DNA from: a virus
Taxonomy: Duplodnaviria > Caudoviricetes
Virus record (IMG/VR): IMGVR_UViG_3300033075_001536
Location: 96,001-160,000 of that record
Reading direction: 5' to 3' (one strand)
DNA length: 64,000 nucleotides
Of this stretch, positions 3,798 through 61,897 are shown one piece after another. The position numbers and the translations under genes are program-made. The notes beneath the pieces were generated by a model, which saw nothing but the letters and a program-made list of their open reading frames with translations, did not search any database and was not told where the DNA came from. Each line of letters opens with the position of its first letter. Position 1 is the stretch's first letter.

Positions 3798-4346
3798 ATG
3801 AAATATATTAAGCTTTTTGAAAATTTTAATAATATTGGACGAGTTGTTTTAACTGGAGTTTCTGGTAGTGGAAAGACGACACTTTTAAACTATCTATCAA
3901 AAGATTTTAAAACTATTCCAGAGGCAGCCAGAGAACTAATTATAGAATTAAAAAAAAGTGATCCGTCTAAACTACCTTGGAATAATAGAGGTGAATTTCA
4001 AAAGCTAGTTGAAAAAAAGCAAGTAGATAATTTTTTAGAAAATGATAATTGTTTTTTTGATAGGGGAATTATTGATGAGGTCGCTTATAATTTGGCATAT
4101 GGTAGAGACATTTCAAATACTCTTAAATCACAATGTGTGAATTATAAATATGATAAAGTTTTTTTATTTAAACCTTATCCAGAAATATATGCTAATGATG
4201 CTGAAAGAGTTGAATCATTTGAAGAGTCTTCTAGGCTATTTCCATTTTTTGTTGAAGCATATAAATCCTATGGATATAATCCGGTTTTAATGATTAATGA
4301 TAGTTTGGAGAAACGCTTGGAATTTATATTAAATAGTATCTTGTAA
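3798..4346 (+). CDS. AAA_28/NadR-like P-loop ATPase or kinase with N-terminal CTS-like peptide
   Basis: GVSGSGKTT Walker A, PEAAR, FFDRG; starts MKYIKLFENF. Confidence 0.8.
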   Translation: MKYIKLFENFNNIGRVVLTGVSGSGKTTLLNYLSKDFKTIPEAARELIIELKKSDPSKLPWNNRGEFQKLVEKKQVDNFLENDNCFFDRGIIDEVAYNLAYGRDISNTLKSQCVNYKYDKVFLFKPYPEIYANDAERVESFEESSRLFPFFVEAYKSYGYNPVLMINDSLEKRLEFILNSIL

Positions 4347-4726
4347 TGAAATATCTTAAAAAATTTGAAAATTTGGTGTGGGAATTTAGTGTAGAAGAAG
4401 TTACCAACATTCTACAAGATTTTATGGACGAAGGATGGGACATTCGAATTAATAAATCATTTGAGGCTATTTGCATTCATGTTCATATTCCAATGAAAGT
4501 TATTCAAAGTGGTATAAATTACAATGCTCTAAATTATTTCCAAAAGGATTATGTTCCAGAAATGCAGAGAAAGGTGAGGTCGATTAAAAATAGATTAATA
4601 GAGTTTGGATTTGATAAGAAAAATATTTGTGGAGACAGTGGTCAGAAATTAAAGCACGAATGCTATAATGTTCAAAATCAATCTTATTACTGCACTATTT
4701 TTCTTTTAGATAAATCTTATTTCTAA
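4346..4726 (+). CDS. CTS-like peptide protein, repeated family
   Basis: MKYLKKFENL; ILQDFMDEG; RLIEFG. Confidence 0.65.
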   Translation: MKYLKKFENLVWEFSVEEVTNILQDFMDEGWDIRINKSFEAICIHVHIPMKVIQSGINYNALNYFQKDYVPEMQRKVRSIKNRLIEFGFDKKNICGDSGQKLKHECYNVQNQSYYCTIFLLDKSYF

Positions 4727-5266: not shown

Positions 5267-5626
5267 ATGATAAAAAGTTGGAAAAAATTTAATGAGAGAA
5301 TATTTACCAATGCAAAAAATTTAGATATTAATTTCGATACTTTGACGGATATATTCCAAGATATTATGGATGATTTTCCGATGGATATTGAAATTTATAA
5401 AAATAAAAATGAGGTATTGGTTGTTAAGTTGGATGGAGGTTGGTTTGGATCAATGGTCAATCCAGAAGTTTGGAACGAAATTAAAAGAATAGAAAGAGAA
5501 ATGAATGATGGTGGGTATATTGATCAAATAGGATCTAGAATGGAGGAAATTGGATATAAAATTGAACCAAATCATATGTTTTTATATCATGATTCTTTTT
5601 ATATGACTTTTGAAAAAATTTCCTAA
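5267..5626 (+). CDS. CTS-like peptide protein, repeated family
   Basis: MIKSWKKFNE; DIFQDIMDDFP; RMEEIG. Confidence 0.65.
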   Translation: MIKSWKKFNERIFTNAKNLDINFDTLTDIFQDIMDDFPMDIEIYKNKNEVLVVKLDGGWFGSMVNPEVWNEIKRIEREMNDGGYIDQIGSRMEEIGYKIEPNHMFLYHDSFYMTFEKIS

Positions 5627-13063: not shown

Positions 13064-13608
13064 AAATACCAAATGGCTTTAAAAATATTGCCGTACCTTC
13101 GGTTGCTGTCTTATCTAAAGACGATTTAAAACAAGTAAGTAATGGTGTAGAGCCAAAGATAGATAATAAACAAATATGTCCATCTTTTTTGATGGGTGTT
13201 GATCATCCAAATTTAGAAAAAGGACCTGATTCGGTTTCAAAATTCTTTTCAAAGTTATTTGAAGCTCGTCAAATGGCACATATATTTCATTTACAAGTAA
13301 ATGGCCAACCAGGATCTGGATGGGAACATACTGCACTTGGAGATTTTTATGAAAAATTATTGGAATTTACAGATGATATTATAGAAACCTATCAAGGGCA
13401 ATATGGAATTGTAGAAGGATATGAGATGATTGATACTAGCGCTACAAGAGATTATAACTCTTTAAAATATTTACAATCATTGGTTGAATTTATAAAGAAA
13501 GAGAGATATAATTGTTTATCTGAAGAAGATTCGCACCTACAAAATATTGTGGATGAAATTGTTGCTCTTGTTTATAAGACTATTTATAAACTAACCTACA
13601 TGAAATGA
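13048..13608 (+). CDS. Ferritin/Dps-like four-helix protein (DUF5856-like)
   Basis: AHIFHL, HTALGDFYE, DDIIETYQG, LQNIVDEI...TIYKL. Confidence 0.7.
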   Translation: METNLKIPNGFKNIAVPSVAVLSKDDLKQVSNGVEPKIDNKQICPSFLMGVDHPNLEKGPDSVSKFFSKLFEARQMAHIFHLQVNGQPGSGWEHTALGDFYEKLLEFTDDIIETYQGQYGIVEGYEMIDTSATRDYNSLKYLQSLVEFIKKERYNCLSEEDSHLQNIVDEIVALVYKTIYKLTYMK

Positions 13609-14246
13609 AATTTGTTAAGAGATTTGAATCCATTTATGGAAATTTTGAAGAAAAAGATGTTTCTTTAGAAAGGATGTTGTATTTAATTTGTGTTGCAAAC
13701 GATGATTGTGTATATGATGCTCCTGGTCCAGAAATTGCTCACCATGAAATATATGAGGGAGATTTTCCAATATTGAACTCAATTATGGATGATAACAATA
13801 GTGATTTTTTAATGGAGGATATAACTAAAGATATTTCAGGAGTTATAAAAAAATTATCCGACAAAGAAAAAAATAATATCAAAGAATTATATCATAAGTT
13901 AAATAGAACATATCGATTGGAAAAGTTCATTACAATAGATGATATTAAAGAATTAACTTATGATTTAGTTGATTCTGGATTTGAGTTGGAGTGGAAAATT
14001 TGGTGTGCTAAATTTAAAACTCCTAATGGATATTTTTCTTCTTTGAAAAACTTCCCAACCACAGAAATAGATATTAAATTCTCTTGTGATGAGGAATTGG
14101 ATAAATATTTTAACATGTCTGAAGATATCCAAACTTTAATAGAGAGACTAAGAGATAGCTACCAGGTTGATTTTAAAATAAGGCCTCATGGCAATACCAA
14201 TCTACCAATGATATCTTATAAAATTACTATTAGTAACAAGGATTAA
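13605..14246 (+). CDS. CTS-like peptide protein, repeated family
   Basis: MKFVKRFES; DIKELTYDLVDSGF. Confidence 0.6.
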   Translation: MKFVKRFESIYGNFEEKDVSLERMLYLICVANDDCVYDAPGPEIAHHEIYEGDFPILNSIMDDNNSDFLMEDITKDISGVIKKLSDKEKNNIKELYHKLNRTYRLEKFITIDDIKELTYDLVDSGFELEWKIWCAKFKTPNGYFSSLKNFPTTEIDIKFSCDEELDKYFNMSEDIQTLIERLRDSYQVDFKIRPHGNTNLPMISYKITISNKD

Positions 14247-36509: not shown

Positions 36510-37067
36510 ATGAAACATTTAAAAAAATTTGAAAACTTCACAGAAGATAATTTCTCACATGCTGGATTTCCTAGTCCAAGTATGAACCCATCTACGGAAC
36601 TAGAAACAGATCCATCAGAAAATGAATTTGATCAAGAAGAAGAGTTCTTCGATGATGAAAAAGATTTGCGTTATGATGATAACGGTGCTGAAGAATTAGA
36701 TAGACTTGACTATGAAAATACAGAAGATTCTGACGATGAGTTCAATGACTTTGGTGATGATGAAGATGATTTTGATGATGAGTTTACCGATGGGGATGAT
36801 GAATTTTCAGATGAAGGTGATATCGACTTTGAACCAGAAGATGAATTTGGTGTAGAAGATGGTCAAAATTCACGTGTTAAGGGGTTTGATGATTTTGCTT
36901 CAGAGGAGCCGGTTAGTGATGAGCTAGTTGATGATTCTGGACTAGAAGAAGATGATTTTGAAGATCATGGTGATTTTGATGATTTCCCTGTTGAAGAGCC
37001 TAAATTAGAAAGAAACAGTTATAGAAGACAATCTTCAAAAACTCCAAGAAGAGCAAGAAGAAGATAA
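36510..37067 (+). CDS. Highly acidic low-complexity protein with CTS-like peptide and basic tail
   Basis: MKHLKKFENF; D/E/F repeats; C-terminal RRARRR. Confidence 0.7.
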   Translation: MKHLKKFENFTEDNFSHAGFPSPSMNPSTELETDPSENEFDQEEEFFDDEKDLRYDDNGAEELDRLDYENTEDSDDEFNDFGDDEDDFDDEFTDGDDEFSDEGDIDFEPEDEFGVEDGQNSRVKGFDDFASEEPVSDELVDDSGLEEDDFEDHGDFDDFPVEEPKLERNSYRRQSSKTPRRARRR

Positions 37068-45827: not shown

Positions 45828-46964
45828 TTAGTTAGATAGAGGCATTTTCACTGTTGGTGAAGATTCATATCCTTCTATTTTTATATCTTCATAAGTTATA
45901 TCAAAAATTCCTTTTTTGTTAATAGAAATTTTCGGAAGTTTAAAAGTTTTTTGTTCTAATTGTTTTTTAACTCCTTCTATTTGATTTAGATAGATATGAC
46001 AGTCTCCACCAGAAAATACTAAAGTTTCTGGGATCATGTTCACTTCCTGTGCAAGCAGATGTAAAAGTATTCCGTAAGAGGCTATATTGTAAGGCAATCC
46101 TAATGGAACATCAACACTTCGTTGAATCCATTTCAAACTTAATTTTCTTTTTGGATATCCTTGATTATCTAAAAATTCATCTGTAATATCCTCACCAAAA
46201 GAGATATGCTTTTTATGAAACTTACACCATTCTTTGATTCTTTCTTCTAAATCCATTTCTCTGGTGTAACATTGAAATCCATAATGACAGGGTGGTAAGG
46301 TCATTTGATCAATTTCAGAAACATTCCAAGCTAATACCATTAGTCTTCTTGAATCCGGATTGTTTTTTAAATCATTGATTAGATTTTTAATTTGATCAAT
46401 TCCTTTTATTTTCCATTTTAACATACTTTGTCCTGAGAATTTTGGATCCTCGACCTCTGTTTTTTCCCAAACAAATTCATTCCATTCTCTCCATTGTTTT
46501 CCATAAACTGGTCCCAAATTTCCCCATTTTTTAGAAAATTTTTCATTTGTTTTTATCCTTTCTACAAATTCTTCTTTAGTAAGCGGTGTTAAATTTTCTG
46601 GACTAGAAAAATCCATATCCAGATGACTCTGCCAACCCATTATATCACCACATTTAAAACCTTCAATAAGCTTTCCTGTTTGCTTAAAATATTTTTTATA
46701 AGCATCCCCATCCCAAATATGACAATCGTTATCAATCAAGTATTTAATATTGGTGTCTCCTTTTAGAAACCATATAAGCTCAACAATAACTCCCTTTAAA
46801 TACATTTTTTTGGATGTTAGAAGTGGAAATCCTTCTGACATATTAAATTTCATGGTATAGTCAAATATTGATTTGGTTCCGGTTCCGGTTCTATCTTTTT
46901 TTACAACACCGTTTGTTAAAATTTCATTAATTAGCTCAAAATATTGCTTATCTACATTATTCAT
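45828..46964 (-). CDS. thyA: Thymidylate synthase
   Basis: DRTGTGT, ELIWF, LGPVYGKQWR, PDSRR, LPPCH, QRSVD.PLG.PYN, D.HIY.N. Confidence 0.97.
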   Translation of the reverse strand: MNNVDKQYFELINEILTNGVVKKDRTGTGTKSIFDYTMKFNMSEGFPLLTSKKMYLKGVIVELIWFLKGDTNIKYLIDNDCHIWDGDAYKKYFKQTGKLIEGFKCGDIMGWQSHLDMDFSSPENLTPLTKEEFVERIKTNEKFSKKWGNLGPVYGKQWREWNEFVWEKTEVEDPKFSGQSMLKWKIKGIDQIKNLINDLKNNPDSRRLMVLAWNVSEIDQMTLPPCHYGFQCYTREMDLEERIKEWCKFHKKHISFGEDITDEFLDNQGYPKRKLSLKWIQRSVDVPLGLPYNIASYGILLHLLAQEVNMIPETLVFSGGDCHIYLNQIEGVKKQLEQKTFKLPKISINKKGIFDITYEDIKIEGYESSPTVKMPLSN

Positions 46965-47242
46965 TTTAAAATATCTTTTAATTTTTTATCTCTTTCAAAT
47001 ACAGGAAAGTCTTTGGTTATTCTTGAATATCCACAGTCATCACATTGTTCAATTTCAGCTTCATAGAAAGGTAGTTTCCTTTTATTTAGGTGTTGGCAAT
47101 TTCTTTCTTTTAATATTTTGTAAAAATGATCGTAAATTATTTTCTTATCAGAAGAGGTAATGGATTCCCACCAAGATTCTATTTTTTTAGAGTCTTCTAT
47201 TCTTGATTGTATTGATTCTTCTTGTGTTAAAACTCTCACCAT
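46961..47242 (-). CDS. Small Zn-finger-like protein with ERDKKLKDIL tail
   Basis: CQH...CDDCG; tail motif. Confidence 0.6.
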   Translation of the reverse strand: MVRVLTQEESIQSRIEDSKKIESWWESITSSDKKIIYDHFYKILKERNCQHLNKRKLPFYEAEIEQCDDCGYSRITKDFPVFERDKKLKDILK

Positions 47243-47801: not shown

Positions 47802-48242
47802 ATGAAACATTTGAGATATTTTGAAAGTTCCACATCAATGGAAGAAATTTCGGAAGATGATTTCTATTCTAATAGAAAAAGTTCAAATCCATCTATTTTA
47901 ACAGAGAAAGAATCCTTGGATGTTACTAAAATATTCAATAAGTATGATGATGGTACTGGATATATAAGATATTTTTTAATTCCTGGTGTTGATCGACAAG
48001 AAGATGGGTATGAAACATCAAATAATATGGATATACAGTGTAGTGACGGTAGATATTGTATTGGTCAAATTGACATATATAAAATGAAACCAAAATATTT
48101 AAATGTATATTTTATTCATTTCAGTGGATCTTATCACCCAAATGGTGATTTATATTTCAGAACCACACACTTTGATGATATACTATCTTGTATGGATAAA
48201 GGATTGAAAATATCTAAAAAATATTGGAGTAAACAAAATTAA
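47802..48242 (+). CDS. CTS-like peptide protein
   Basis: MKHLRYFES. Confidence 0.6.
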   Translation: MKHLRYFESSTSMEEISEDDFYSNRKSSNPSILTEKESLDVTKIFNKYDDGTGYIRYFLIPGVDRQEDGYETSNNMDIQCSDGRYCIGQIDIYKMKPKYLNVYFIHFSGSYHPNGDLYFRTTHFDDILSCMDKGLKISKKYWSKQN

Positions 48243-50749: not shown

Positions 50750-50956
50750 TTATCCTAATTTAAAATTTTCTTTTTTAACTTCAATTTCACCTAGTTCTGG
50801 ATGCATAATAATTAGTCTAAGTCCAGAGGAATCTTCAATAGATTCACGATAGACTTTGAACTTATCACCTATTTTATAGGTATTTTTTCCATTTACATTA
50901 ATTATTGAATCCTTGATTGCAATAATTTCATCACCTTGTTTAAATTTCGTCTCCAT
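50750..50956 (-). CDS. Small hypothetical protein
   Basis: SH3-like FKQGD...V pattern. Confidence 0.5.
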   Translation of the reverse strand: METKFKQGDEIIAIKDSIINVNGKNTYKIGDKFKVYRESIEDSSGLRLIIMHPELGEIEVKKENFKLG

Positions 50957-51572
50957 CTTCTTTAAATAGTTCTTCTAATTTTTTATCTCTTATGTATTCT
51001 AGTTTCAATTGCTTAATAGTTGTTTTCCAATTCTCAAATAAATTTGAAATTTCATATTCTTCCTCAGCTCTTGATCCAATGGTAATGCTACCATGCTTCA
51101 TTCCAGCTACTGCTTTCCAAGCACTACTTGAATCTTTTGGCATCGATTTTGAAAAGATATAAAATGTGCAATTTTCTTTTTTCTTTAATCTACTTAAAAG
51201 AGAATCTCTGTTATCCGATAAGTCAATATCTGGAGTAATTTGTATGATAAATATAATTGGAATACTTGTTTGTTTTCTAACTCTTTGTTCATATTCTTTC
51301 ATTCCTAAAAAAGTGCAAGATCTATAAATATCAATAATTAAATAGTCCACTCTAAATAGATTTTCAGATAATACTTTTTCAAAATCATCTATACCATGAA
51401 ATTTCTTTTTAGCAGTTTGGGTCCAAGAATACAATCCAGAATCAAAACTATCATTGGATAATAAAAGAATATTTTTACCAGCAACATCTAGAAAACTAAA
51501 TACTTTGGAACCACCAACTTGTATATCGTTTGGTGTTCCACTAATATAGTTTGTATCTTTAATATCTATCAT
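50940..51572 (-). CDS. Possible degenerate RecA/DnaB-fold protein with YIRDKKLEEL tail
   Basis: VDYLIID and IPIIFIIQ resemble helicase motifs; no Walker A. Confidence 0.5.
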   Translation of the reverse strand: MIDIKDTNYISGTPNDIQVGGSKVFSFLDVAGKNILLLSNDSFDSGLYSWTQTAKKKFHGIDDFEKVLSENLFRVDYLIIDIYRSCTFLGMKEYEQRVRKQTSIPIIFIIQITPDIDLSDNRDSLLSRLKKKENCTFYIFSKSMPKDSSSAWKAVAGMKHGSITIGSRAEEEYEISNLFENWKTTIKQLKLEYIRDKKLEELFKEDGDEI

Positions 51573-51643: not shown

Positions 51644-52453
51644 ATGGCAGATACTGCTCAATCAACTCCAGTAAATTATCCAAAATCAAATACTAAAAAT
51701 GGATTCTCTTTTACTTTTATAATTCCCTATCAACATAAAATGGATAGACTAATGAATCTAAAGAGAGTGGTGGAATGGGTGTCTGCTTTTCAAGGAGTGG
51801 AGATTATATTAGTTGAACAAGATAGAGTTCCAAGAATTAAAAACATATTTTTAAAAAACACACAATATTATTTTGTAAAATCGGAACTTCCTTTTAATAA
51901 AGCTCTTGCCATGAATGTTGGACTAAAGCATGCTCACTCACCGGTAATAGTTTTTGGAGATGCTGATATTATCATGGATCCTCAGCAATTTATAAATGGG
52001 TTGAGTTTAATTAATCAATACGAATGTGTTAGTCCATATAATAAAGTAATTGACCTTGAAGCAAATGAGGTTAATGGTGGTCTCGAATACTGGAAAACAA
52101 TCAATAGACCTGGTCGTGGAGAAACAGATATTCAGAAAATTTGTTTGGCTGGGGGAATTATTATGTTTCGTAAAGATGCTGCTTTAAAGATTGGTGGGGC
52201 TTCACAAGAATTTCTTGGTTGGGGCGCAGAAGATGACCATTTAAGCTTTAAAATAAAAGGTCTTTTAAGTTGGTATGAGGCACCTGGAACTTGCTATCAT
52301 TTGTATCATTCTAAGGTAGTGCCAGATATGACTTACTATCAAAGAAATTTACAACTTTTAAATAAGTTAGTTCAGATGAATAGAGATGAATTAATTAGAT
52401 ATGTTGCTGGAACTAGTAATAAAATTGGAATGTTGAACTATTATGATAGATAA
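51644..52453 (+). CDS. GT-A glycosyltransferase (GT2/GT7 galactosyltransferase-like)
   Basis: IIPY, VEQ, FNKALAMNVG, DAD, GWGAEDD, HLYH. Confidence 0.85.
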   Translation: MADTAQSTPVNYPKSNTKNGFSFTFIIPYQHKMDRLMNLKRVVEWVSAFQGVEIILVEQDRVPRIKNIFLKNTQYYFVKSELPFNKALAMNVGLKHAHSPVIVFGDADIIMDPQQFINGLSLINQYECVSPYNKVIDLEANEVNGGLEYWKTINRPGRGETDIQKICLAGGIIMFRKDAALKIGGASQEFLGWGAEDDHLSFKIKGLLSWYEAPGTCYHLYHSKVVPDMTYYQRNLQLLNKLVQMNRDELIRYVAGTSNKIGMLNYYDR

Positions 52454-53279
52454 ATTATGTTGTTATAAAGAAATTGAACAGGATCATTCTGGACCTATGC
52501 AGATTCATTATGTAGAAACCCTGATGCAAAAAACAGTAAAAGAACTTAATGATATAAAATCAGAATTAAGAGGAGTAACTATTGGGTCTTTAATTGATGA
52601 GAATGATAAGTCTGAAATTTCTAAAATTTTAGAAAAACACGGATTTGATTCGATTGAAGAGTACCAAAGGGAAGTTGAGACTGGTGGTTGGGAAGAATCT
52701 TCTAATCCATTTTTAACACAACAAGGAATGCCAACAGGATCAACAATATCCGCTTTTTCTGGCAATGCTAGAACTATGGGGTTAAAGGTAAGAGCTCAAA
52801 CTCTACATCCAAGAAAATTCAATAGTGTCAAGGATGTCGAAGATGAATTATTAAACATATTAATGTCCGAGTCTAAGAAAAATACCTTAAATCTATTTAA
52901 AAAAAATGGAGTTAATTTTGATATTGACTCATCTAAAATTCCAAATCAAATTGCAGGAATTCCATCTTCTTTGGAAAGAAAAGTGATGAGTAAAATAATC
53001 CATCTATCTAGCTTGATTGCTGTTGAAGGAAGAATTGGACCAGCTACACATATCTTAATTCATCCAAAATTAACTTTACAGTATAATAATATTAACACTG
53101 CTGGGTTTTCATTACTTACTTCTAGTAAAATTGAAAAAAATAGAGTTTATGTTTTTAGAAATTCGGACAATTCTAACAATAATCAAATATATGTTACCTA
53201 TAATAAAACTTTAAATGAATATTATATTGGAATCACTAATGCAATTAAGAATAATTGTTTTACCTTTGAAATTATTTAA
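52443..53279 (+). CDS. Degenerate major-capsid-protein-like protein
   Basis: RKVMSKI...SSLIAVEGRIGPATHILI resembles the gp23 'IA..T.RG.GNFII' region; GLKVRAQT. Confidence 0.45.
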   Translation: MIDKLCCYKEIEQDHSGPMQIHYVETLMQKTVKELNDIKSELRGVTIGSLIDENDKSEISKILEKHGFDSIEEYQREVETGGWEESSNPFLTQQGMPTGSTISAFSGNARTMGLKVRAQTLHPRKFNSVKDVEDELLNILMSESKKNTLNLFKKNGVNFDIDSSKIPNQIAGIPSSLERKVMSKIIHLSSLIAVEGRIGPATHILIHPKLTLQYNNINTAGFSLLTSSKIEKNRVYVFRNSDNSNNNQIYVTYNKTLNEYYIGITNAIKNNCFTFEII

Positions 53280-56460: not shown

Positions 56461-57666
56461 TTATACTTCATTAAATTCCTCTAAAATAGCAGCATTGAAA
56501 ATATCTTCAATATTTTTCTTGTGTGATCTTGGAACAATGATAGAGTCATGAACGGTTAATATTTTAACCTCTGGATATAAGTTCATAATTCTTCTGACAA
56601 TGGTTCTAAAAATTAAATTAGATTCAGCTTTTTGTAGATGGTAGGCTAAAATTTTATAGTCATTATGCTCTTCTTTGTATAATTTAATAAAATTATGAAT
56701 CGTTGGAAATAATTTTTTAAATTTCATATCTGCAGCAGAATTTTTCTGATTTCTGCCGAATAAAACTTTATAGGTAATTTCTTTTACTTCTTTTCTATCT
56801 TTTGTGTGCAAGTTATCCATTAAAAATTGATAATAATTTCCAGACAAAGTTAGTGTTTTAAATAAGTCATATTCCTCTTTAATAACCCAAGATGTTTTGG
56901 AATCCTTTATTAATTTAGTTAAAAATAATGGTTGTGAATTGTGTATATCAATTTCATCTGTTTCTTCTCCGTCAATTAAAAGGCAATTTTTACGAATAAA
57001 TCCTTTTAAAATAGTAAAATTGGTATGCATTCTACCAAAGGTGTCAAAGTGGTAAAAAATATGATTCTCATTTATAGACTCAACTGAATATTTATTTCTG
57101 TTATAGATATCAATATCTTCTCTTTTTAGAGTGTCTAGATAGAAAATAGATCGTTCAAATTCTATTTGAACACTATATAAATCATCAATTAGCTTTTCAC
57201 GAACATCTAGGGGTATGATATTTTTATCATCCATCTCGTATTCGGCTAGTTTATTTTTATATTTTTTAAGTAAAAATTTATCTTCATTTTTATATCGATA
57301 AATACTAGATCTTAAAATACTTGGATTGATGCCATATATTCTAGCATTTCTTCCCTTTTTATAGTTTTGTATGAGTTGAAATATATTATTTTCCACTAAA
57401 TAATCGATATAGAAATTATATTGATATCCATATTTTTCTTTAAGGATGGTGGCTGATATGTTAAATCTATTTTCCTTTCTAAAATAATATCTAAGAAGCA
57501 GATTATGTACTATATCAATGATATAAGCTGATTTTAGCTTTTTTTCTTGGAAAATAAAGTGTTTTTCCTTAGAAAGTTGAACTAACTTTGCAGGCAAAAA
57601 TTGTAAAGAAAATTTTTTGTCTTTATATTTTTTTACCTTTATAGGAGCTACAACAGTTTTGATCAT
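56461..57666 (-). CDS. Compact family A polymerase-like protein
   Basis: GRMHT, IDIHNSQP (motif A-like), RKEVK...YKVLFG (motif B-like), LQKAES, LTVHDS (motif C-like). Confidence 0.65.
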   Translation of the reverse strand: MIKTVVAPIKVKKYKDKKFSLQFLPAKLVQLSKEKHFIFQEKKLKSAYIIDIVHNLLLRYYFRKENRFNISATILKEKYGYQYNFYIDYLVENNIFQLIQNYKKGRNARIYGINPSILRSSIYRYKNEDKFLLKKYKNKLAEYEMDDKNIIPLDVREKLIDDLYSVQIEFERSIFYLDTLKREDIDIYNRNKYSVESINENHIFYHFDTFGRMHTNFTILKGFIRKNCLLIDGEETDEIDIHNSQPLFLTKLIKDSKTSWVIKEEYDLFKTLTLSGNYYQFLMDNLHTKDRKEVKEITYKVLFGRNQKNSAADMKFKKLFPTIHNFIKLYKEEHNDYKILAYHLQKAESNLIFRTIVRRIMNLYPEVKILTVHDSIIVPRSHKKNIEDIFNAAILEEFNEV

Positions 57667-57720: not shown

Positions 57721-58116
57721 TTAAGGTTTTTTATTAATTTCTTCGAATGCAAAATACATTCTATTTCCAGTTCTAGAGACATATACATCTCTGTAACAGA
57801 TGGCATACCCAAAACTACATATTCTCTCTAATAATTCATCCGTCATTTGAAAGATGTCAAACATGTCTGAATTTACATTTGGATCTTGTGACATACTTTC
57901 AGTTGATCTTGATATTCCTAACAGAAAATCACCTTTGGGTTTTGGATAAATCATTAAATGCGGCTTAATATGATTTCTATTAGAATCTCTATCCTTACTT
58001 AGTTCAATAGTATCGACACGAAACCCCTCAGAAATCAAATCAGCTGCCATATTTTTAAGATCATCTTCAATTTTTGAGTATTTGCTAGATTCATTAAATG
58101 GTTTGATATGTCTCAT
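57721..58116 (-). CDS. CTS-like peptide protein, repeated family
   Basis: MRHIKPFNES; DLKNMAADLISEGF. Confidence 0.6.
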   Translation of the reverse strand: MRHIKPFNESSKYSKIEDDLKNMAADLISEGFRVDTIELSKDRDSNRNHIKPHLMIYPKPKGDFLLGISRSTESMSQDPNVNSDMFDIFQMTDELLERICSFGYAICYRDVYVSRTGNRMYFAFEEINKKP

Positions 58117-58514
58117 CTTTTACTAGTTGTATTTATTGTTACCTCCAGACAGTAATATAATTCACCATCTTCATAATCAGTACCATAGGTATCAAAGAAA
58201 TTTTTGTCCCATTCTTTTAAATATTCCACACTTGGCAACTTATCTAATCTACACATTGGACTTGTGGATATATCAACAAATTGATAGATAATTTGGCTAA
58301 TTTTATAATCTGTTTCTAAATGCTCATAGGCATCTTTAAAATCTTGTTCAATTTCTATGTATTGATTTAAATCTTTAAATTTTACTCTAACAGATTCAGC
58401 ATCTTTTGCATAGGAACGATCTTCGACTTCTAATCCAAATTCATCCCCAATAGATTGGAAATAAATGGATAGTCCTTCGTGGACATTACTTTCGTTAAAT
58501 TTCAATATTTTCAT
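58113..58514 (-). CDS. CTS-like peptide protein, repeated family
   Basis: MKILKFNES; YFQSIGDEFG. Confidence 0.6.
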   Translation of the reverse strand: MKILKFNESNVHEGLSIYFQSIGDEFGLEVEDRSYAKDAESVRVKFKDLNQYIEIEQDFKDAYEHLETDYKISQIIYQFVDISTSPMCRLDKLPSVEYLKEWDKNFFDTYGTDYEDGELYYCLEVTINTTSKR

Positions 58515-58525
58515 TAAACTATATA

Positions 58526-58687
58526 TTAAATACCGAGAAGATATTTAATAGCAATCATTCTAATATATTTTGTTGGTGCTGGATATATTCTTCCTCTATT
58601 TGTTTTTTCAAATGTGGTAAAAATTCCTTCAAGGATATATTTTGAGGAGTTCTTCAATTTTTGATTTTCTGGATTTTTTGGCAACAT
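58526..58687 (-). CDS. Micro-ORF (53 aa) resembling the N-terminus of a gp21-type prohead protease
   Basis: Manual translation ...KYILEGIFTTFEKTNRGRIYP...YIRMIAIKYLL. Confidence 0.55.
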   Translation of the reverse strand: MLPKNPENQKLKNSSKYILEGIFTTFEKTNRGRIYPAPTKYIRMIAIKYLLGI

Positions 58688-58818
58688 ACTTGTATATTGA
58701 GGAAATTTTATATTTTTGGATCAAATAATGATGATTCACTAATAGTTGGTGTTTTATGTGAGATTATATATGGCATCCAAACATATCCTGGATTATTTGG
58801 TTTGTTTCCAACTTTCAT
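58629..58818 (-). pseudogene. Micro-ORF resembling the C-terminus of a gp23-type capsid protein, interrupted by a +1 frameshift near 58710
   Basis: MKVGNKPNNPGYVWMPYI...SESSLFDPKI* then in the +1 frame KISSIY...SRKSKIEELL. Confidence 0.55.
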
Positions 58819-58975
58819 TTAAAAGCTCTTCTATTTTTTCTTTTCGACTGCGTAGATCTGGTGATTGATCACCTATAATCATAAAATTACCATATCCTTT
58901 TCTAGAAGATTTGTTAATATGTTTAGAAGCTTTAATTAGTTTACTGATTAGCCTCCTTTGATCCAAGCTTTTCAT
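58793..58975 (-). CDS. Micro-ORF (60 aa) resembling a central gp23 capsid segment plus RKEKIEELL tail
   Basis: QRRLISKLIKASKHINKSSRKGYGNFMII. Confidence 0.6.
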   Translation of the reverse strand: MKSLDQRRLISKLIKASKHINKSSRKGYGNFMIIGDQSPDLRSRKEKIEELLNESWKQTK

Positions 58976-60308
58976 CTGGAATTTCCATTTTTTTATCAGG
59001 AATACCACCTTTCTTTTTCTTGTTAGATCCAGCATTTTCTAAATCTTGCAGAACATCCGGGTAGACCTCCCCAGCACCATCCTTATCATATTCAATGGAG
59101 AAAAATTCTCCAAAATCCACTAATCCAGATTTTGTTAGTTCCATTTCATGCATTTTTTTCAAATACATATCAATGGTTCTAGATATCTTATCCACAAAAT
59201 CGTTAAATAGATTTAAAGTTCCCTCTGTAAATACCCCAACTGGCTTTTTCTTTTTCTTATTAAATGATCCAAGTATAATTTTAAAAATATATTCAATTTT
59301 TGGATCATCTCCAATAAATTCTTTAGTTAGTTTATTGGTAATTAATTCCCTATTGATTTTAAATTTATCTTTATCAAAAAATTCCGGAACAACAAAATCA
59401 AAAGCAATTAAATCATGTTTAACTTCAGAAACATAGATGTTAAATAATTTACAAATTAAGTAAATATAAATTTCATCTTTTTTAGTTCCTTTTAATTTTA
59501 TATCTTCAAGTCCAATAGATTGGCAAAATGTTAAGAAATTAAATAATATTAAACTATAAATTTCAATAAATTCGGTTGAATTGGTATCGGATATTCTTTT
59601 GTAAAGTGGGTTTAATAGTTCGAAACTAATTTCCTTATCTTTTATTTTAACGACCAATTTTTCCAAATTATTTTGAAACTCATCATCTTTCATCAAAAAT
59701 GAATTAGTGGATAGTGGATTTAAAATTTTGTAGAAAAAATAAGCAAAGGAAGATTCACCAAAAACATATTCTAGATCTTTTTCTGAAGTGTGTATAAAAT
59801 ACTTTATAGCCTCAATTGCTCTTTGATCTAATTTTCCCTGGAAAACAATGGGTAACATATCTACATTAAATAACCTTGAATATTCATCCAATTCTTCTGC
59901 TGAATAGTTATATTTATTTCCCTTGCAGATAGATGACAAGACTAGTCCATTTTTAGGCATTCTTGAGTAAGTAATATTTGCTGGTTGGTTATCCGGAAAA
60001 TACTCAAAACAAAACCACCAGTTTTTATTTAATAGTCCTTTGACCCTAGTATCTAGTGTATTTAGATAGTTTATTGCTGGATTGTAATAGTTCTGCATAG
60101 CTAGGTCAATCATATTAATCTTTTCAGAAGATATAGATTTTGGTTTTATAGAAAATTCTTTTCCATTCCAGTTGACCCAAATTTTTGATCCCTGAACATC
60201 TTCATAAACTATAATATCACTCCCAAAGATTTCTTCTAAGGTTTTTTGATCGTCTAATCCGTTTAATGTAGCTAGTTTTCCCATGTCTTGACTATTATAC
60301 TCCACCAT
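58941..60308 (-). CDS. RNA ligase (Rnl2)-fold protein with degenerate active site
   Basis: YEDVQGS (motif I lacks Lys), FCFEY, LPIVFQG, LEKLVVK. Confidence 0.55.
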   Translation of the reverse strand: MVEYNSQDMGKLATLNGLDDQKTLEEIFGSDIIVYEDVQGSKIWVNWNGKEFSIKPKSISSEKINMIDLAMQNYYNPAINYLNTLDTRVKGLLNKNWWFCFEYFPDNQPANITYSRMPKNGLVLSSICKGNKYNYSAEELDEYSRLFNVDMLPIVFQGKLDQRAIEAIKYFIHTSEKDLEYVFGESSFAYFFYKILNPLSTNSFLMKDDEFQNNLEKLVVKIKDKEISFELLNPLYKRISDTNSTEFIEIYSLILFNFLTFCQSIGLEDIKLKGTKKDEIYIYLICKLFNIYVSEVKHDLIAFDFVVPEFFDKDKFKINRELITNKLTKEFIGDDPKIEYIFKIILGSFNKKKKKPVGVFTEGTLNLFNDFVDKISRTIDMYLKKMHEMELTKSGLVDFGEFFSIEYDKDGAGEVYPDVLQDLENAGSNKKKKGGIPDKKMEIPDEKLGSKEANQ

Positions 60309-60377: not shown

Positions 60378-61469
60378 ATGCGTTTAAAAAAATTCTTTGA
60401 ATTTAAAGAATCTGACCTAGATCCAATCAAATCTTTTCATTTAAAAGATGAGTTAAATCCAAAACTATGGACAGACTTTGAATTGGATAGAGGAGTGCAT
60501 AAAAATTTGGTAAAAATTGCTACTGACTTTTATGATTCTTTAGAATTGAAGGGAAAAATTAAAGATATTATTCTAACAGGATCACTTTGTAATTATAATT
60601 GGTCTGAAAAGTATTCAGATTATGATTTACACATTTTGGTGAACTTTTCTGATATTTCAGATGATTTGATTTTAGTTAAAAAGTTTGTAGATGCTGCAAA
60701 AACTATTTGGAATAAAGAACATAATATCAAACTAAAGGGATATGAGGTAGAAATTTATATTCAAGACGAAAAGGAAAAACATAGATCAACTGGTGTGTAT
60801 TCTCTTTTAAATGATAAATGGAAAGTAAAACCAAATAAGGAAAAATTCGAAATTGATGAAGATTTAATTGCTAAAAAAGCAGAATCTATTATGTTATCTA
60901 TTGATGATCTAGAAAAAGAGTCAAAAGAAGATTTGCCTTACACAACATTCAAAGGACATGTTAAAAAGGTTTGGGAAAAAATAAAGAAAATGCGTTTAGA
61001 AGCATTAGATGAAGGCGGTGAATATTCAACTGGTAATTTAGTTTTCAAATTATTAAGAAGAAATGGGTACATTGAAAAGATTATGATCATGAAGAAAAAT
61101 GCCTATGAAAAGCAATTTACTTTGAATGAGGGAATTTTGGATTGGTTCAAAGATTCTGAGGAAGATGCAATGGGAAAACAAATACTGAAGAAGTTGGATG
61201 ATGTTGATCCGGAAGATATTGAAATGACAAAGGATAATGGTAATTGGATCCTATTCGCAAAACTTGGTAATAATCTAATAAGAATAGAAAGATCTGTGCA
61301 TTATGGTGCAAGACATATGCATTCAAATCACAATATTACCATAAATGATTCGGAATTACCTTGTTCATCATCTATAAAGGCAAAAATATATAGTAAGTTA
61401 GTAACCATGTATAATGATGAGAAAAAAAGACAAAATATCCAAAAAATATCAACTGACTTGAATATATGA
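60378..61469 (+). CDS. Pol-beta-superfamily nucleotidyltransferase with CTS-like peptide
   Basis: LTGSLCNYNW...SDYDLHI, VEIYIQ, GVYS, NLVFK.LRR.G; starts MRLKKFFEFKES. Confidence 0.75.
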   Translation: MRLKKFFEFKESDLDPIKSFHLKDELNPKLWTDFELDRGVHKNLVKIATDFYDSLELKGKIKDIILTGSLCNYNWSEKYSDYDLHILVNFSDISDDLILVKKFVDAAKTIWNKEHNIKLKGYEVEIYIQDEKEKHRSTGVYSLLNDKWKVKPNKEKFEIDEDLIAKKAESIMLSIDDLEKESKEDLPYTTFKGHVKKVWEKIKKMRLEALDEGGEYSTGNLVFKLLRRNGYIEKIMIMKKNAYEKQFTLNEGILDWFKDSEEDAMGKQILKKLDDVDPEDIEMTKDNGNWILFAKLGNNLIRIERSVHYGARHMHSNHNITINDSELPCSSSIKAKIYSKLVTMYNDEKKRQNIQKISTDLNI

Positions 61470-61897
61470 AATATCTAAAAAAATATGATGAAGGCTTTAT
61501 TGATTGGATCACTAATAAGTTCAAAAAAGAAGAACCAGAAGACACTGATACAGATGATAATAAAATAGCTAAAGGTATTATTAAAACTATTATTCCATCT
61601 ATTGATCCGGATAATATTGAATTTGTTGAAGCAACCTATGATAATGGGAATAAGAATTCCATCAATGTTAAATTAGGAGGTGGTAGCAATTTATACTTAA
61701 CGAAATATTATTCAAATTATGCTTTAAAAGTTGATGATGATGAAATTTTATGTGATGATGGTGATTATAAAGATAAGTCCGGTAAGGTTACAAGAACCAA
61801 TTATAAAAGGGTTATCTATGAACAATTACTTAAAAAGTATAAAGACGAGCAAGCAAGAGTTCGTTTTCAAAGAATTAGTACCAATGTTGGATTATGA
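61466..61897 (+). CDS. CTS-like peptide protein, paralogue of the NTase C-terminal domain
   Basis: EGFIDW...IDPDNIE...IY..L...Y.DE..R...QRIST. Confidence 0.65.
   Translation: MKYLKKYDEGFIDWITNKFKKEEPEDTDTDDNKIAKGIIKTIIPSIDPDNIEFVEATYDNGNKNSINVKLGGGSNLYLTKYYSNYALKVDDDEILCDDGDYKDKSGKVTRTNYKRVIYEQLLKKYKDEQARVRFQRISTNVGL

What the first reader, a model, noticed from the sequence alone, without database searches (positions are those of the whole stretch)
58526..58975. Cassette of micro-ORFs encoding fragments of capsid protein and prohead protease, each with a common RxxKIxxLL tail
Seen: three overlapping minus-strand micro-ORFs that the ORF track mostly misses. (a) 58975-58793: MKSLDQRRLISKLIKASKHINKSSRKGYGNFMII...RKEKIEELL. 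(b) 58818-58629: MKVGNKPNNPGYVWMPYI...SESSLFDPKI/KISSIY...RKSKIEELL. (c) 58687-58526: ...KYILEGIFTTFEKTNRGRIYP...YIRMIAIKYLL. Knowledge, recalled from memory rather than aligned: T4-type gp23 has the conserved segments 'IARQTGRG.GNFII' and 'GYKG....AGIYYAPY........F.P.MGFKTRY', and gp21 protease begins 'LYIEGIF.Q.E..NRN.R.YP'. The three peptides match these three segments. Inference: the phage expresses isolated conserved epitopes of head-assembly proteins on a shared tag. They could be decoys that titrate host immune sensors (capsid proteins and prohead proteases are known triggers of anti-phage systems) or dominant-negative poisons of head assembly in co-infecting relatives.
Basis: partly seen in the sequence, partly recalled or inferred. 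Interest (0 to 1): 0.9.

Follow-up and report, generated by a model that had tools for sequence, protein, structure and literature searches.

The report
Tagged head-protein-fragment mini-genes, huge phage
A huge uncultured phage carries three tiny chained genes (one currently broken), each a short slice of its type of capsid protein or capsid-maturation protease joined to a short shared tail helix; related phages keep the same mini-genes under selection, so they are real genes of an undescribed kind whose job is still unknown.

Summary
On the minus strand between an RNA-ligase-like gene and two small genes lie three chained micro-ORFs. ORF a is 58793-58975 (60 aa, intact). ORF b plus c is 58629-58818 (about 61 aa, split by a +1 shift at an A5 run). 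ORF d is 58526-58687 (53 aa, intact).

Profiles built from relatives show what each one copies:
- a: a major-capsid A-domain segment
- b/c: the capsid C-terminal strands
- d: the first ~40 residues of the T4-type prohead protease

They are not debris. Each belongs to a mini-gene family found intact in other huge-phage genomes, with dN/dS of 0.3-0.6 for the a-type and b-type families. A sediment-metagenome relative keeps a chain of small open ORFs at this locus.

The 'RxxKIxxLL' tail is real. It is a variant of a C-terminal tag, (Y)IRDKKLEKILK, that ends at least 11 other small proteins of this genome.

In about 45 of 67 relatives, the same slot holds a different, strongly conserved ~65-aa capsid spine-helix mini-gene.

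Function is untested, and the decoy or dominant-negative reading remains a hypothesis. This scan has noted the same class on other DNA. I found no published description.

The parts
58793..58975 (-). Mini-gene a (60 aa, intact). Capsid A-domain helix-strand slice (residues ~6-36) plus the tag RKEKIEELL (58820-58846). Its start overlaps the end of the RNA-ligase-like gene.
   Evidence: ORF. Capsid profile 421-449. a-type family HMM from other genomes, E 3.8e-10. 75%-identical 63-aa homologue P0156 in a sediment metagenome. Codon-usage score within the range of true genes.
58708..58818 (-). Mini-gene 2, 5' part (b, 36 aa to a TAA). Capsid C-terminal strands, GNK..PGYVWMPY..ISE..F.P.
   Evidence: Capsid profile 508-537, E 0.028 genome-wide. 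hhalign P 1e-4. Same N-terminal boundary (M-x-V-G-N/R-K) as the intact 76-78-aa genes in L165-L167.
58713..58717 (-). A5 run where the reading frame of mini-gene 2 breaks. One A fewer restores a ~61-aa ORF.
   Evidence: Sequence and frames. An independent Logan assembly of run X1 has the identical sequence, though it may be the same sample. The relative's second ORF is intact at 58 aa.
58629..58709 (-). Mini-gene 2, 3' part (c, +1 frame). Last capsid-like strand (S-I-Y-K-Y-V) plus the tag RKSKIEELL (58644-58670). Overlaps the start of d.
58526..58687 (-). Mini-gene d (53 aa, intact). N-terminal hairpin of the T4-type prohead protease (YILEGIFTTFEKTNRGRIYP) plus a degenerate tag IRMIAIKYLL (58535-58564).
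   Evidence: Protease profile top hit, E 7e-5. hhalign 91%, P 1.2e-6. Hits real proteases of G003 and G001 and a 67-aa open frame (a 62-aa ORF) in G006. The G006 d-type finds it as top hit, E 0.0012. Open and 94% identical at the DNA level in the X2 relative.
58941..60308 (-). Upstream neighbour: 455-aa RNA-ligase-fold protein. In relatives it is directly followed by the canonical mini-gene.
   Evidence: AlphaFold model and Foldseek hits to T4 Rnl2/Rnl1 and tRNA ligase, E 2e-5, prob 1.0. Synteny.
57721..58514 (-). Downstream neighbours: 133-aa and 131-aa ORFs with T4 internal-protein-like N-termini (MKILKFNES, MRHIKPFNES). They are absent from this slot in relatives, and together with a-d they form a ~1.27-kb insertion.
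   Evidence: Homologue P0154 begins M-T-I-K-T-Y-Q-K-F.
46961..47242 (-). Another tagged small protein in the window (93 aa, ends ..ERDKKLKDILK).
50940..51572 (-). Another tagged protein in the window (210 aa, ..YIRDKKLEELFKEDGDEI).

Best explanation
The region is a chain of three mini-genes of one class. Each encodes a 25-40-residue slice of a T4-type head protein followed by a short basic amphipathic helix, R-K-x-K-I-x-x-L-(L/F).
- a: capsid A-domain helix-strand.
- b/c: the last capsid strands. In this genome it is inactivated by one extra A.
- d: the first hairpin of the prohead protease.

Shown here:
- The slices are homologous to those head-protein segments.
- The three types are conserved, intact gene families in other huge phages. 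The a-type and b-type families are under purifying selection.
- The tail is a variant of a C-terminal tag shared with many unrelated small proteins of the same genome.
- In most relatives the same genomic slot holds yet another capsid-slice mini-gene.

Inferred:
- The tag docks all tagged proteins on one common, still unknown partner.
- The head-protein slice acts as a mimic of an exposed edge of unassembled capsid protein or protease. It would compete for whatever binds that edge.
- The most likely target is a host sensor or factor that recognises conserved T4-type head-protein features. The alternative is the head proteins of co-infecting T4-type phages.
- The locus is accessory and fast-turning, as expected of a conflict gene.

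My odds:

| Claim | Probability |
|---|---|
| Real, conserved mini-gene families | ~0.85 |
| Mimicry of any kind is the function | ~0.4 |
| Specifically an immune decoy | ~0.2 |
| Specifically anti-competitor | ~0.1 |

The confidence figure given for this explanation (0.45) is for the statement as a whole, function included.
For: Homology of the slices.

a-type family:
- The profile of a plus P0156 finds 57-66-aa open frames in G007 (E 1.7e-7), G006 (1.3e-4) and G008 (3.4e-4). It also finds each genome's true capsid gene at the same span.
- Two more members come from IMG/VR.
- The reverse HMM finds a at E 3.8e-10.
- Four of six members hit Pfam Gp23, best E 1.1e-7.
- dN/dS is 0.30-0.63.

d-type: in G006 a 62-aa protease-slice ORF with the tag IRKNKIKRIF directly follows the a-type ORF.

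b-type: 76-78-aa intact ORFs in three genomes, dN/dS 0.26-0.45, with the same start boundary.

A relative at 75-94% identity keeps the chain as small open ORFs. One contig holds a 63-aa a-like ORF, a 58-aa ORF and a cut ORF of at least 31 aa; a second contig holds an open d-like ORF.

Codon usage of a, b and d is gene-like.

Tag: at least 11 other ORFs end in (Y)IRDKKLEKILK, a ~10-fold enrichment at C-termini.

Slot: about 45 of 67 related loci have a ~65-aa capsid spine-helix mini-gene there, with Pfam Gp23 E 4e-15, T4 gp23 residues 258-301 E 9e-8 and dN/dS 0.1-0.5. More than 70 clusters at 50% identity appear among the 150 best hits in a 1.8-billion-protein library.

The mini-genes look like generic T4-type capsids rather than the resident one. 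The canonical mini-gene scores E 1e-14 against phrog_138 but 0.064 against phrog_28442, the huge-phage capsid family. Its micro-gene profile scores 35 bits on T4 gp23 and 13-14 bits on resident capsids.
Against: - No expression data exist. No RNA run was listed, which is uninformative.
- Mini-gene 2 is broken in this genome, and c has no start codon of its own.
- Single-sequence searches of a, b and d give nothing significant in Pfam or PDB.
- Between a and its 75%-identical relative, most of the changes I could reconstruct are non-synonymous, although conservative. Selection on this particular copy may therefore be weak.
- Slices of 25-40 residues cannot reproduce the folded capsid surface that Avs-type sensors recognise. 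This is my reading of PMC13581612, where whole capsid proteins are the ligands.
- The other tagged proteins are not recognisable fragments of known proteins. The tag therefore does not by itself imply mimicry.
- No partner of the tag is known.
Confidence: 0.45

Rival explanations
1. Recombination debris. The 1.27-kb insertion between the ligase-like and polymerase-like genes brought in dead pieces of a foreign head module. These are decaying, and the open frames are residual.
For: - The b/c frameshift, and c lacking a start codon.
- The slot differs from that of 67 relatives.
- The fragments are only 35-50% identical to the clade's head proteins.
- a and d have no close small relatives apart from one metagenome contig.
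Against: - The a-type, b-type and d-type ORFs exist intact in other genomes, with the same boundaries and tags. For the a-type and b-type, dN/dS is below 1.
- The X2 relative keeps a chain of small open ORFs despite 6-25% divergence.
- In 30% GC DNA, a 58-codon open frame has a chance of about 1% (my estimate from base composition).
- Codon usage is gene-like.
- Every piece ends in the same tag.
Confidence: 0.1
2. Own-virion assembly helpers. The slices pair with the phage's own capsid protein or protease during folding or prohead assembly. They would act as trans-acting caps or chaperone-like strands, and the tag would take them to the scaffold.
For: - The mini-genes are conserved and selected.
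- The tag weakly resembles a helix just after the protease domain of the clade's protease-scaffold protein (PKKLEELLEYYEEL). The best non-self hit of the P0156 tail is E 0.026.
Against: - The content of the slot varies between close relatives, and one gene is broken here. That is unlike essential assembly factors.
- The slices resemble generic T4-type capsids more than the resident capsid.
- They sit among RNA-ligase, polymerase-like and deaminase genes, not in the head module.
Confidence: 0.15
3. Packaged cargo. The C-terminal helix is a capsid- or core-targeting label, like T4's N-terminal capsid targeting sequence or encapsulin cargo peptides. The mini-proteins would be injected proteins, and their head-protein ancestry would be incidental.
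For: - The tag is shared by many unrelated small proteins.
- The neighbours carry T4 internal-protein-like N-termini, and 24 ORFs of the genome start MKYLKxFExF.
Against: - This does not explain why the most conserved capsid and protease slices recur, with identical boundaries, in different phages.
- If MKYLKxFExF is this phage's N-terminal capsid-targeting signal (not tested), a second label would need another purpose.
Confidence: 0.15
4. One longer product made by programmed +1 frameshifting or transcriptional slippage through a->b->c->d.
For: Each successive frame is +1 of the previous one, and A-runs lie at two junctions.
Against: - a, b and d have their own ATGs and stops.
- Homologues in other genomes are separate ORFs chained by overlapping start and stop codons.
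- I recognised no known +1 slippery motif at the b/c stop.
Confidence: 0.03

Closest known systems
T4 major capsid protein gp23 and vertex protein gp24 (Pfam PF07068; PDB 5vf3, 6uzc, 1yue)
   Same: a copies the segment around T4 gp23 residues ~361-388 (weak). b/c copies the C-terminal 'PY...F.P...SRY' strands. The canonical slot gene copies residues 258-301.
   Different: The mini-genes are 25-40-residue slices, not an HK97 fold. They cannot form a shell, carry an added C-terminal tag, and are encoded away from the head module.
T4 prohead protease gp21 (Pfam PF03420 Peptidase_S77; structure 5JBL cited from memory)
   Same: d aligns with the first ~36 residues of the clade's protease domain.
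   Different: No catalytic residues are covered and d is only 53 aa, so it cannot be an enzyme.
Gol peptide of T4 gp23 with the Lit protease and EF-Tu (from memory), and capsid-sensing Avs7/8/10 and Dsr1 (PMC13581612)
   Same: These show that short or whole capsid-protein features are immune triggers. That is the logic behind a decoy reading.
   Different: The Gol region is N-terminal (about residues 93-122), not the segments copied here. No phage-encoded capsid-fragment decoy is described in that paper or in my two literature searches.
Capsid targeting sequence of T4 internal proteins IPI-III and Alt (from memory); encapsulin C-terminal cargo-loading peptides (from memory)
   Same: In both, a short shared peptide label sits on many otherwise unrelated small proteins of one virus or compartment.
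   Different: The T4 label is N-terminal and is cleaved. This genome has its own N-terminal motif on 24 ORFs. The tag here is C-terminal, helical and basic, and its reader is unknown.
Eukaryotic microProteins such as ID and LITTLE ZIPPER (from memory)
   Same: Small proteins derived from one interaction segment of a larger protein, which act by competitive, dominant-negative binding.
   Different: The analogy is in logic only. There is no homology, and no binding has been shown here.

Membership tests
T4-type major capsid protein (Pfam PF07068 Gp23) | Score above the Pfam cut-off over most of the 376-position model, with a complete HK97 fold | tested here: not met
   a, b and c give no Pfam hit at E<=1. 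Only profile spans 421-449 and 508-545 of a ~570-position clade model are covered.
Prohead protease S77 (Pfam PF03420) | Protease domain of ~200 residues with the catalytic residues | tested here: not met
   No PF03420 hit in the genome. d covers only profile positions 18-53 of the clade's protease.
a-type tagged mini-gene family (defined here: L181-L184, P0156) | ORF of 56-66 aa: L..KL.KAS..I..S..G.GN-type capsid slice followed by RKEKI..L(F/L) at the C-terminus | tested here: met
   The HMM of four foreign members hits a at E 3.8e-10 over positions 2-60. Alignment A7 has 12 invariant columns, including RKEKI.
b-type tagged mini-gene family (L165-L167) | Intact ~76-aa ORF starting M-x-(V/I)-G-(R/N)-K, then PGY..PY...., with an RK.KI..LL tag and an SRY-like strand | tested here: inconclusive
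   Start boundary, PGY..PY and RKSKI are shared. However, the window copy is frameshifted, has the tag at the end rather than inserted, and overall identity is low.
d-type tagged mini-gene (G006, L184 1379-1567) | ~60-aa ORF with the protease N-terminal hairpin (..G.(F/L).TF....N.GRIYP) followed by an IRK.KIKRIF-type tag | tested here: met
   42% identity. Reciprocal top hits, E 0.0017 and 0.0012. The tag in d is degenerate.
Canonical capsid spine-helix mini-gene of the ligase slot (alignment A1) | Position directly after the RNA-ligase-like gene | tested here: met
   a starts inside the last 35 nt of that gene. Relatives start at or near its stop.
Canonical capsid spine-helix mini-gene of the ligase slot (alignment A1) | Homology to Gp23 model positions ~131-185 (SVEVKA.TR.L.A.W..E...DL) | tested here: not met
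   The family HMMs find nothing in the whole 170-kb contig. Only the tails of a and c align weakly.
C-terminally tagged small proteins of this genome | R-(D/N/x)-K-K-(L/I)-x-x-(I/L)-(L/F) within ~12 residues of the C-terminus of a small protein | tested here: met
   a and c fit the motif. At least 11 other ORFs carry (Y)IRDKKLEKILK, with C-terminal enrichment of ~10-fold. The a/c variant (RKEKIEELL) is closest to the tails of the a-type and canonical mini-genes.

The most novel reading that the evidence does not exclude
Huge phages run a modular 'tagged mimic' system. Short slices of the most conserved head-protein surfaces (capsid, prohead protease) are expressed as separate mini-proteins. 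A common C-terminal helix plugs them into one reader. They blunt host sensors that detect T4-type head proteins, or sabotage head assembly of competing T4-type phages. The slices are swapped between slots as the conflict moves on.
Probability: 0.3. Interest if true: 0.9.

Novelty: categorically new. Interest (0 to 1): 0.72.

Why it matters
If these mini-proteins are mimics, they would be a new class of phage counter-measure or inter-phage weapon, built by copying the very epitopes that immunity and assembly depend on. They would also point directly at which capsid and protease surfaces are recognised in vivo.

The shared tag implies a hub protein that reads roughly one in twenty proteins of such phages. 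Finding that hub would open an unexplored layer of huge-phage biology.

There is a practical point too. These genes are missed or mis-called as 'major capsid protein' fragments by annotation pipelines.

Tried and rejected
- **Complex prediction.** Complex prediction of a with the 455-aa ligase-like protein gave no verdict.
- **RNA evidence.** No RNA holder was listed for the stretch.
- **Relative's DNA.** DNA of the two Logan contigs of the X2 relative could not be fetched. Its 58-aa, 31-aa, 60-aa and 127-aa products were therefore never seen.
- **Close relatives.** Scans of IMG/VR with a and d, and of JGI metagenomes with the a profile, found nothing. The word-index protein search found only self for d, and one relative each for a and for the 133-aa ORF.
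- **Single-sequence searches.** a, b and d gave nothing in PDB. tblastn of d against phage genomes gave only non-significant hits, including one head maturation protease at E 1.
- **Rejected: the tail is the capsid spine helix or a scaffold-linker helix.** Both alignments exist, but neither is significant genome-wide.
- **Rejected: a+b+c is one frameshifted capsid pseudogene.** b starts at an ATG at the same boundary as intact b-type genes, and stops lie just upstream in its frame.
- **No signal.**
  - DNA-level alignment of a with canonical mini-genes showed no homology.
  - The DNA repeat search gave only short chance-level repeats.
  - The sigma-70 promoter and terminator scan was at background.
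- **My errors.** My first codon-usage run used two out-of-frame segments; I corrected this.

Full report
**Setting**

The window is bases 96001-160000 of a 170,678-bp IMG/VR virus contig with ~30% GC and no tRNA genes in the window. Its relatives are uncultured huge phages of 385-735 kb. The contig ends inside the major capsid gene, so only the last 80 residues of that protein are present. No prohead protease gene lies on the contig.

**The observation**

| ORF | Coordinates | Length | State |
|---|---|---|---|
| a | 58975->58793 | 60 aa | intact |
| b | 58818->58708 | 36 aa | ends at a TAA |
| c | 58709->58629 | - | +1 frame, no ATG of its own |
| d | 58687->58526 | 53 aa | intact |

Each frame is +1 of the one before it. 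The b/c break sits in the A5 run at 58713-58717, and one A fewer gives a continuous ORF of about 61 aa.

A Logan assembly of run X1 has the identical sequence. It may come from the same sample, so it does not independently confirm the break.

**Are the similarities real?**

I collected 48 capsid and 52 protease-scaffold proteins from relatives. I built profiles from them and scanned every six-frame segment of the 170-kb genome.

- The protease profile's best hit in the genome is d (E 7e-5, profile positions 18-53).
- The capsid profile finds the true capsid C-terminus, then a 278-aa capsid paralogue (window 52443-53279), then b (E 0.028, positions 508-537), then a (E 0.2, positions 421-449).
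- a and b are adjacent, on the same strand, and collinear with the capsid protein.

Other tests agree.

- hhalign gives P about 1e-4 for a, b and b+c against the capsid and P 1.2e-6 for d against the protease. The swapped controls give P 0.07-0.2.
- tblastn of a against 50,697 phage genomes returns only three hits at E<=10. All three lie inside the capsid genes of Flavobacterium phage MaF61 and Tenacibaculum phage pT24 at the homologous place, and b/c aligns collinearly further downstream.

Single peptides do not reach Pfam or PDB thresholds on their own.

**What normally sits in this slot**

The upstream 455-aa gene folds like an RNA ligase. Foldseek matches T4 Rnl2/Rnl1 and tRNA ligase at E about 1e-5 with probability 1.0.

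In 67 related loci, this ligase-like gene is directly followed by the homologue of the window's 401-aa gene. The gap between them is ~200 nt. In about 45 of those loci the gap holds a 56-74-aa ORF, often starting at the ligase gene's stop codon.

That ORF is a clean copy of the strand-plus-spine-helix segment of T4-type capsid proteins.

- Pfam Gp23 E 4e-15.
- T4 gp23 residues 258-301, E 9e-8.
- It is under purifying selection, with dN/dS of 0.10-0.48.
- It is abundant in metagenomes. Of the 150 best hits in a 1.8-billion-protein library, more than 70 clusters at 50% identity are full-length small proteins.
- It matches T4-type capsid models far better than it matches the resident huge-phage capsid. 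The figures are phrog_138 E 1e-14 against phrog_28442 E 0.064, and 35 bits against 13-14 bits.

The window's contig has no copy of this canonical gene. Instead the slot holds a 1.27-kb insertion: a, b/c and d plus two small ORFs (133 and 131 aa). Those two ORFs have N-termini that resemble the T4 internal-protein targeting peptide.

**Not debris: the same mini-genes elsewhere**

*A close relative.* One relative exists in a sediment metagenome (run X2). One contig carries the ligase-like gene, a 63-aa a-like ORF (P0156, 75% identical, same RKEKIEELL tail), then a 58-aa ORF, then a further ORF that is cut off after 31 aa by the contig end. A second contig carries an open d-like ORF (94% DNA identity), an extra 127-aa gene, and the 133-aa homologue.

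*a-type.*
- A profile of a plus P0156, run on five near-complete huge-phage genomes, finds 57-66-aa open frames in G007 (E 1.7e-7), G006 (1.3e-4) and G008 (3.4e-4).
- In all five genomes it also finds the true capsid gene at the same query span.
- An IMG/VR scan adds two more members.
- These a-type genes end in IRKEKIKRLF, and four of six members hit Pfam Gp23 (best E 1.1e-7).
- They have dN/dS of 0.30-0.63.
- As an HMM they recover the window's a at E 3.8e-10 across slice and tail.

*d-type.* In G006 the a-type gene is directly followed by a 62-aa ORF. That ORF is made of the protease N-terminal hairpin plus IRKNKIKRIF. It and the window's d are reciprocal best hits.

*b-type.*
- Three genomes carry intact 76-78-aa genes that begin at exactly the same capsid boundary as b (M-L-V-G-R-K against M-K-V-G-N-K).
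- They contain RKSKIRRLL and have dN/dS of 0.26-0.45.
- Each is preceded by another tagged 43-45-aa ORF.

Codon usage of a, b and d in the window is in the range of true genes.

**The tail is a tag**

The strict motif occurs three times in the six-frame translation, twice here. A looser search shows at least 11 other ORFs of 69-210 aa ending in (Y)IRDKKLEKILK. This is about ten-fold enriched at C-termini. A tag HMM finds further cases in this genome and in related loci, and matches the tails of the canonical mini-genes in register.

The other tagged proteins are unrelated to each other; some are zinc ribbons and most have no family. The tail of a and c is therefore a variant of a general C-terminal label. 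The tail of d is a degenerate match.

**How it probably works**

Shown:
- The slices are real and the families are conserved.
- The a-type and b-type families are under purifying selection.
- The tag is shared.
- The slot is accessory and turns over.
- One member is broken here.

Inferred:
- The tag docks the proteins on a common reader.
- The slice mimics an exposed edge of unassembled capsid protein or protease.

Because the slices keep the generic T4-type consensus rather than the resident sequence, the target is more likely something that recognises T4-type head proteins in general. That means a host sensor or factor, or a competitor phage, rather than the phage's own shell. Capsid proteins are known triggers of several defence families (PMC13581612).

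I found no description of phage-encoded head-protein slices in two full-text searches. Assembly helper, packaged cargo and debris remain as rivals, as set out under the rival explanations.

**Relation to earlier notes of this scan**

The scan has flagged the same class on other DNA. Examples are three chained capsid, protease and portal-like mini-genes with one tag, and a capsid C-terminal mini-gene with an inserted RxxKI tag.

I did not rely on those notes. I reproduced the class independently on loci fetched here.

**Verdict**

This is a real, undescribed kind of small phage gene. Its function is open.

Noticed in passing
L002-L068, about 5330-5590 of each locus (e.g. L021 5367-5573): A conserved 56-74-aa mini-gene lies directly after the RNA-ligase-like gene in about 45 of 67 related huge-phage loci. 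It copies T4 gp23 residues ~258-315 plus a basic tail. dN/dS is 0.1-0.5, and more than 70 clusters at 50% identity appear among the best hits in a 1.8-billion-protein library.
   Followed up: yes
whole 170-kb genome; in the window e.g. 3798-4346, 4346-4726, 13605-14246, 36510-37067, 47802-48242, 57721-58116, 61466-61897: 24 of 276 ORFs of at least 60 aa begin with MK(Y/H)(L/I)K.(F/Y)E.F. This resembles the N-terminal capsid targeting sequence of T4 internal proteins and suggests a large set of packaged or protease-processed proteins.
   Followed up: partly
window 46961-47242 (-), 50940-51572 (-); genome 24794-26120, 49671-50137, 85455-85916, 89601-89936 and others: At least 11 small proteins end in the C-terminal tag (Y)IRDKKLEKILK. 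Most have no known family and some are zinc ribbons.
   Followed up: partly
window 58941-60308 (-): The 455-aa protein has no Pfam or PHROG family but folds like an RNA ligase (T4 Rnl1/Rnl2, tRNA ligase adenylyltransferase). It is conserved in huge phages.
   Followed up: partly
window 52443-53279 (+): A 278-aa shortened capsid paralogue matches clade capsid profile positions 396-473 (E 5e-7). Homologues of 261-264 aa occur in L021 and L012. It may be a vertex-type protein.
   Followed up: partly
window 56461-57666 (-): The 401-aa protein ends in a VHDSIIVP motif, which resembles family-A polymerase or T7-type RNA polymerase motif C. It is conserved next to the ligase-like gene in all relatives.
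   Followed up: no
L001 524-1384 (-), i.e. genome 169468-170328: A 286-aa ORF lies just downstream of the capsid gene. It has several CxxC pairs and a C-terminal 'EFDGIQH' motif, and looks like a free-standing homing endonuclease.
   Followed up: no
L184 1201-1715; L182 1201-1513; L174 1287-1499: In other huge phages the a-type mini-gene sits between a ~260-aa gene and a dCMP-deaminase-like gene. It is followed by variable further tagged micro-ORFs, including a recurrent '..STDW(I/A)(M/I)K..' type of 52-70 aa.
   Followed up: partly
L077/L165 1377-1514: A 43-45-aa tagged micro-ORF (M-S-F-A-A-G-W-P-G-T-N-N ... R-K-N-K-I-K-R-L-F) directly precedes and overlaps the b-type mini-gene in three genomes. 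Its origin was not determined.
   Followed up: no
window 58502-58520: In the X2 relative, 380 other bases carrying a 127-aa gene replace 17 nt between d and the 133-aa ORF. The boundary after d therefore acts as an insertion point for small genes.
   Followed up: partly
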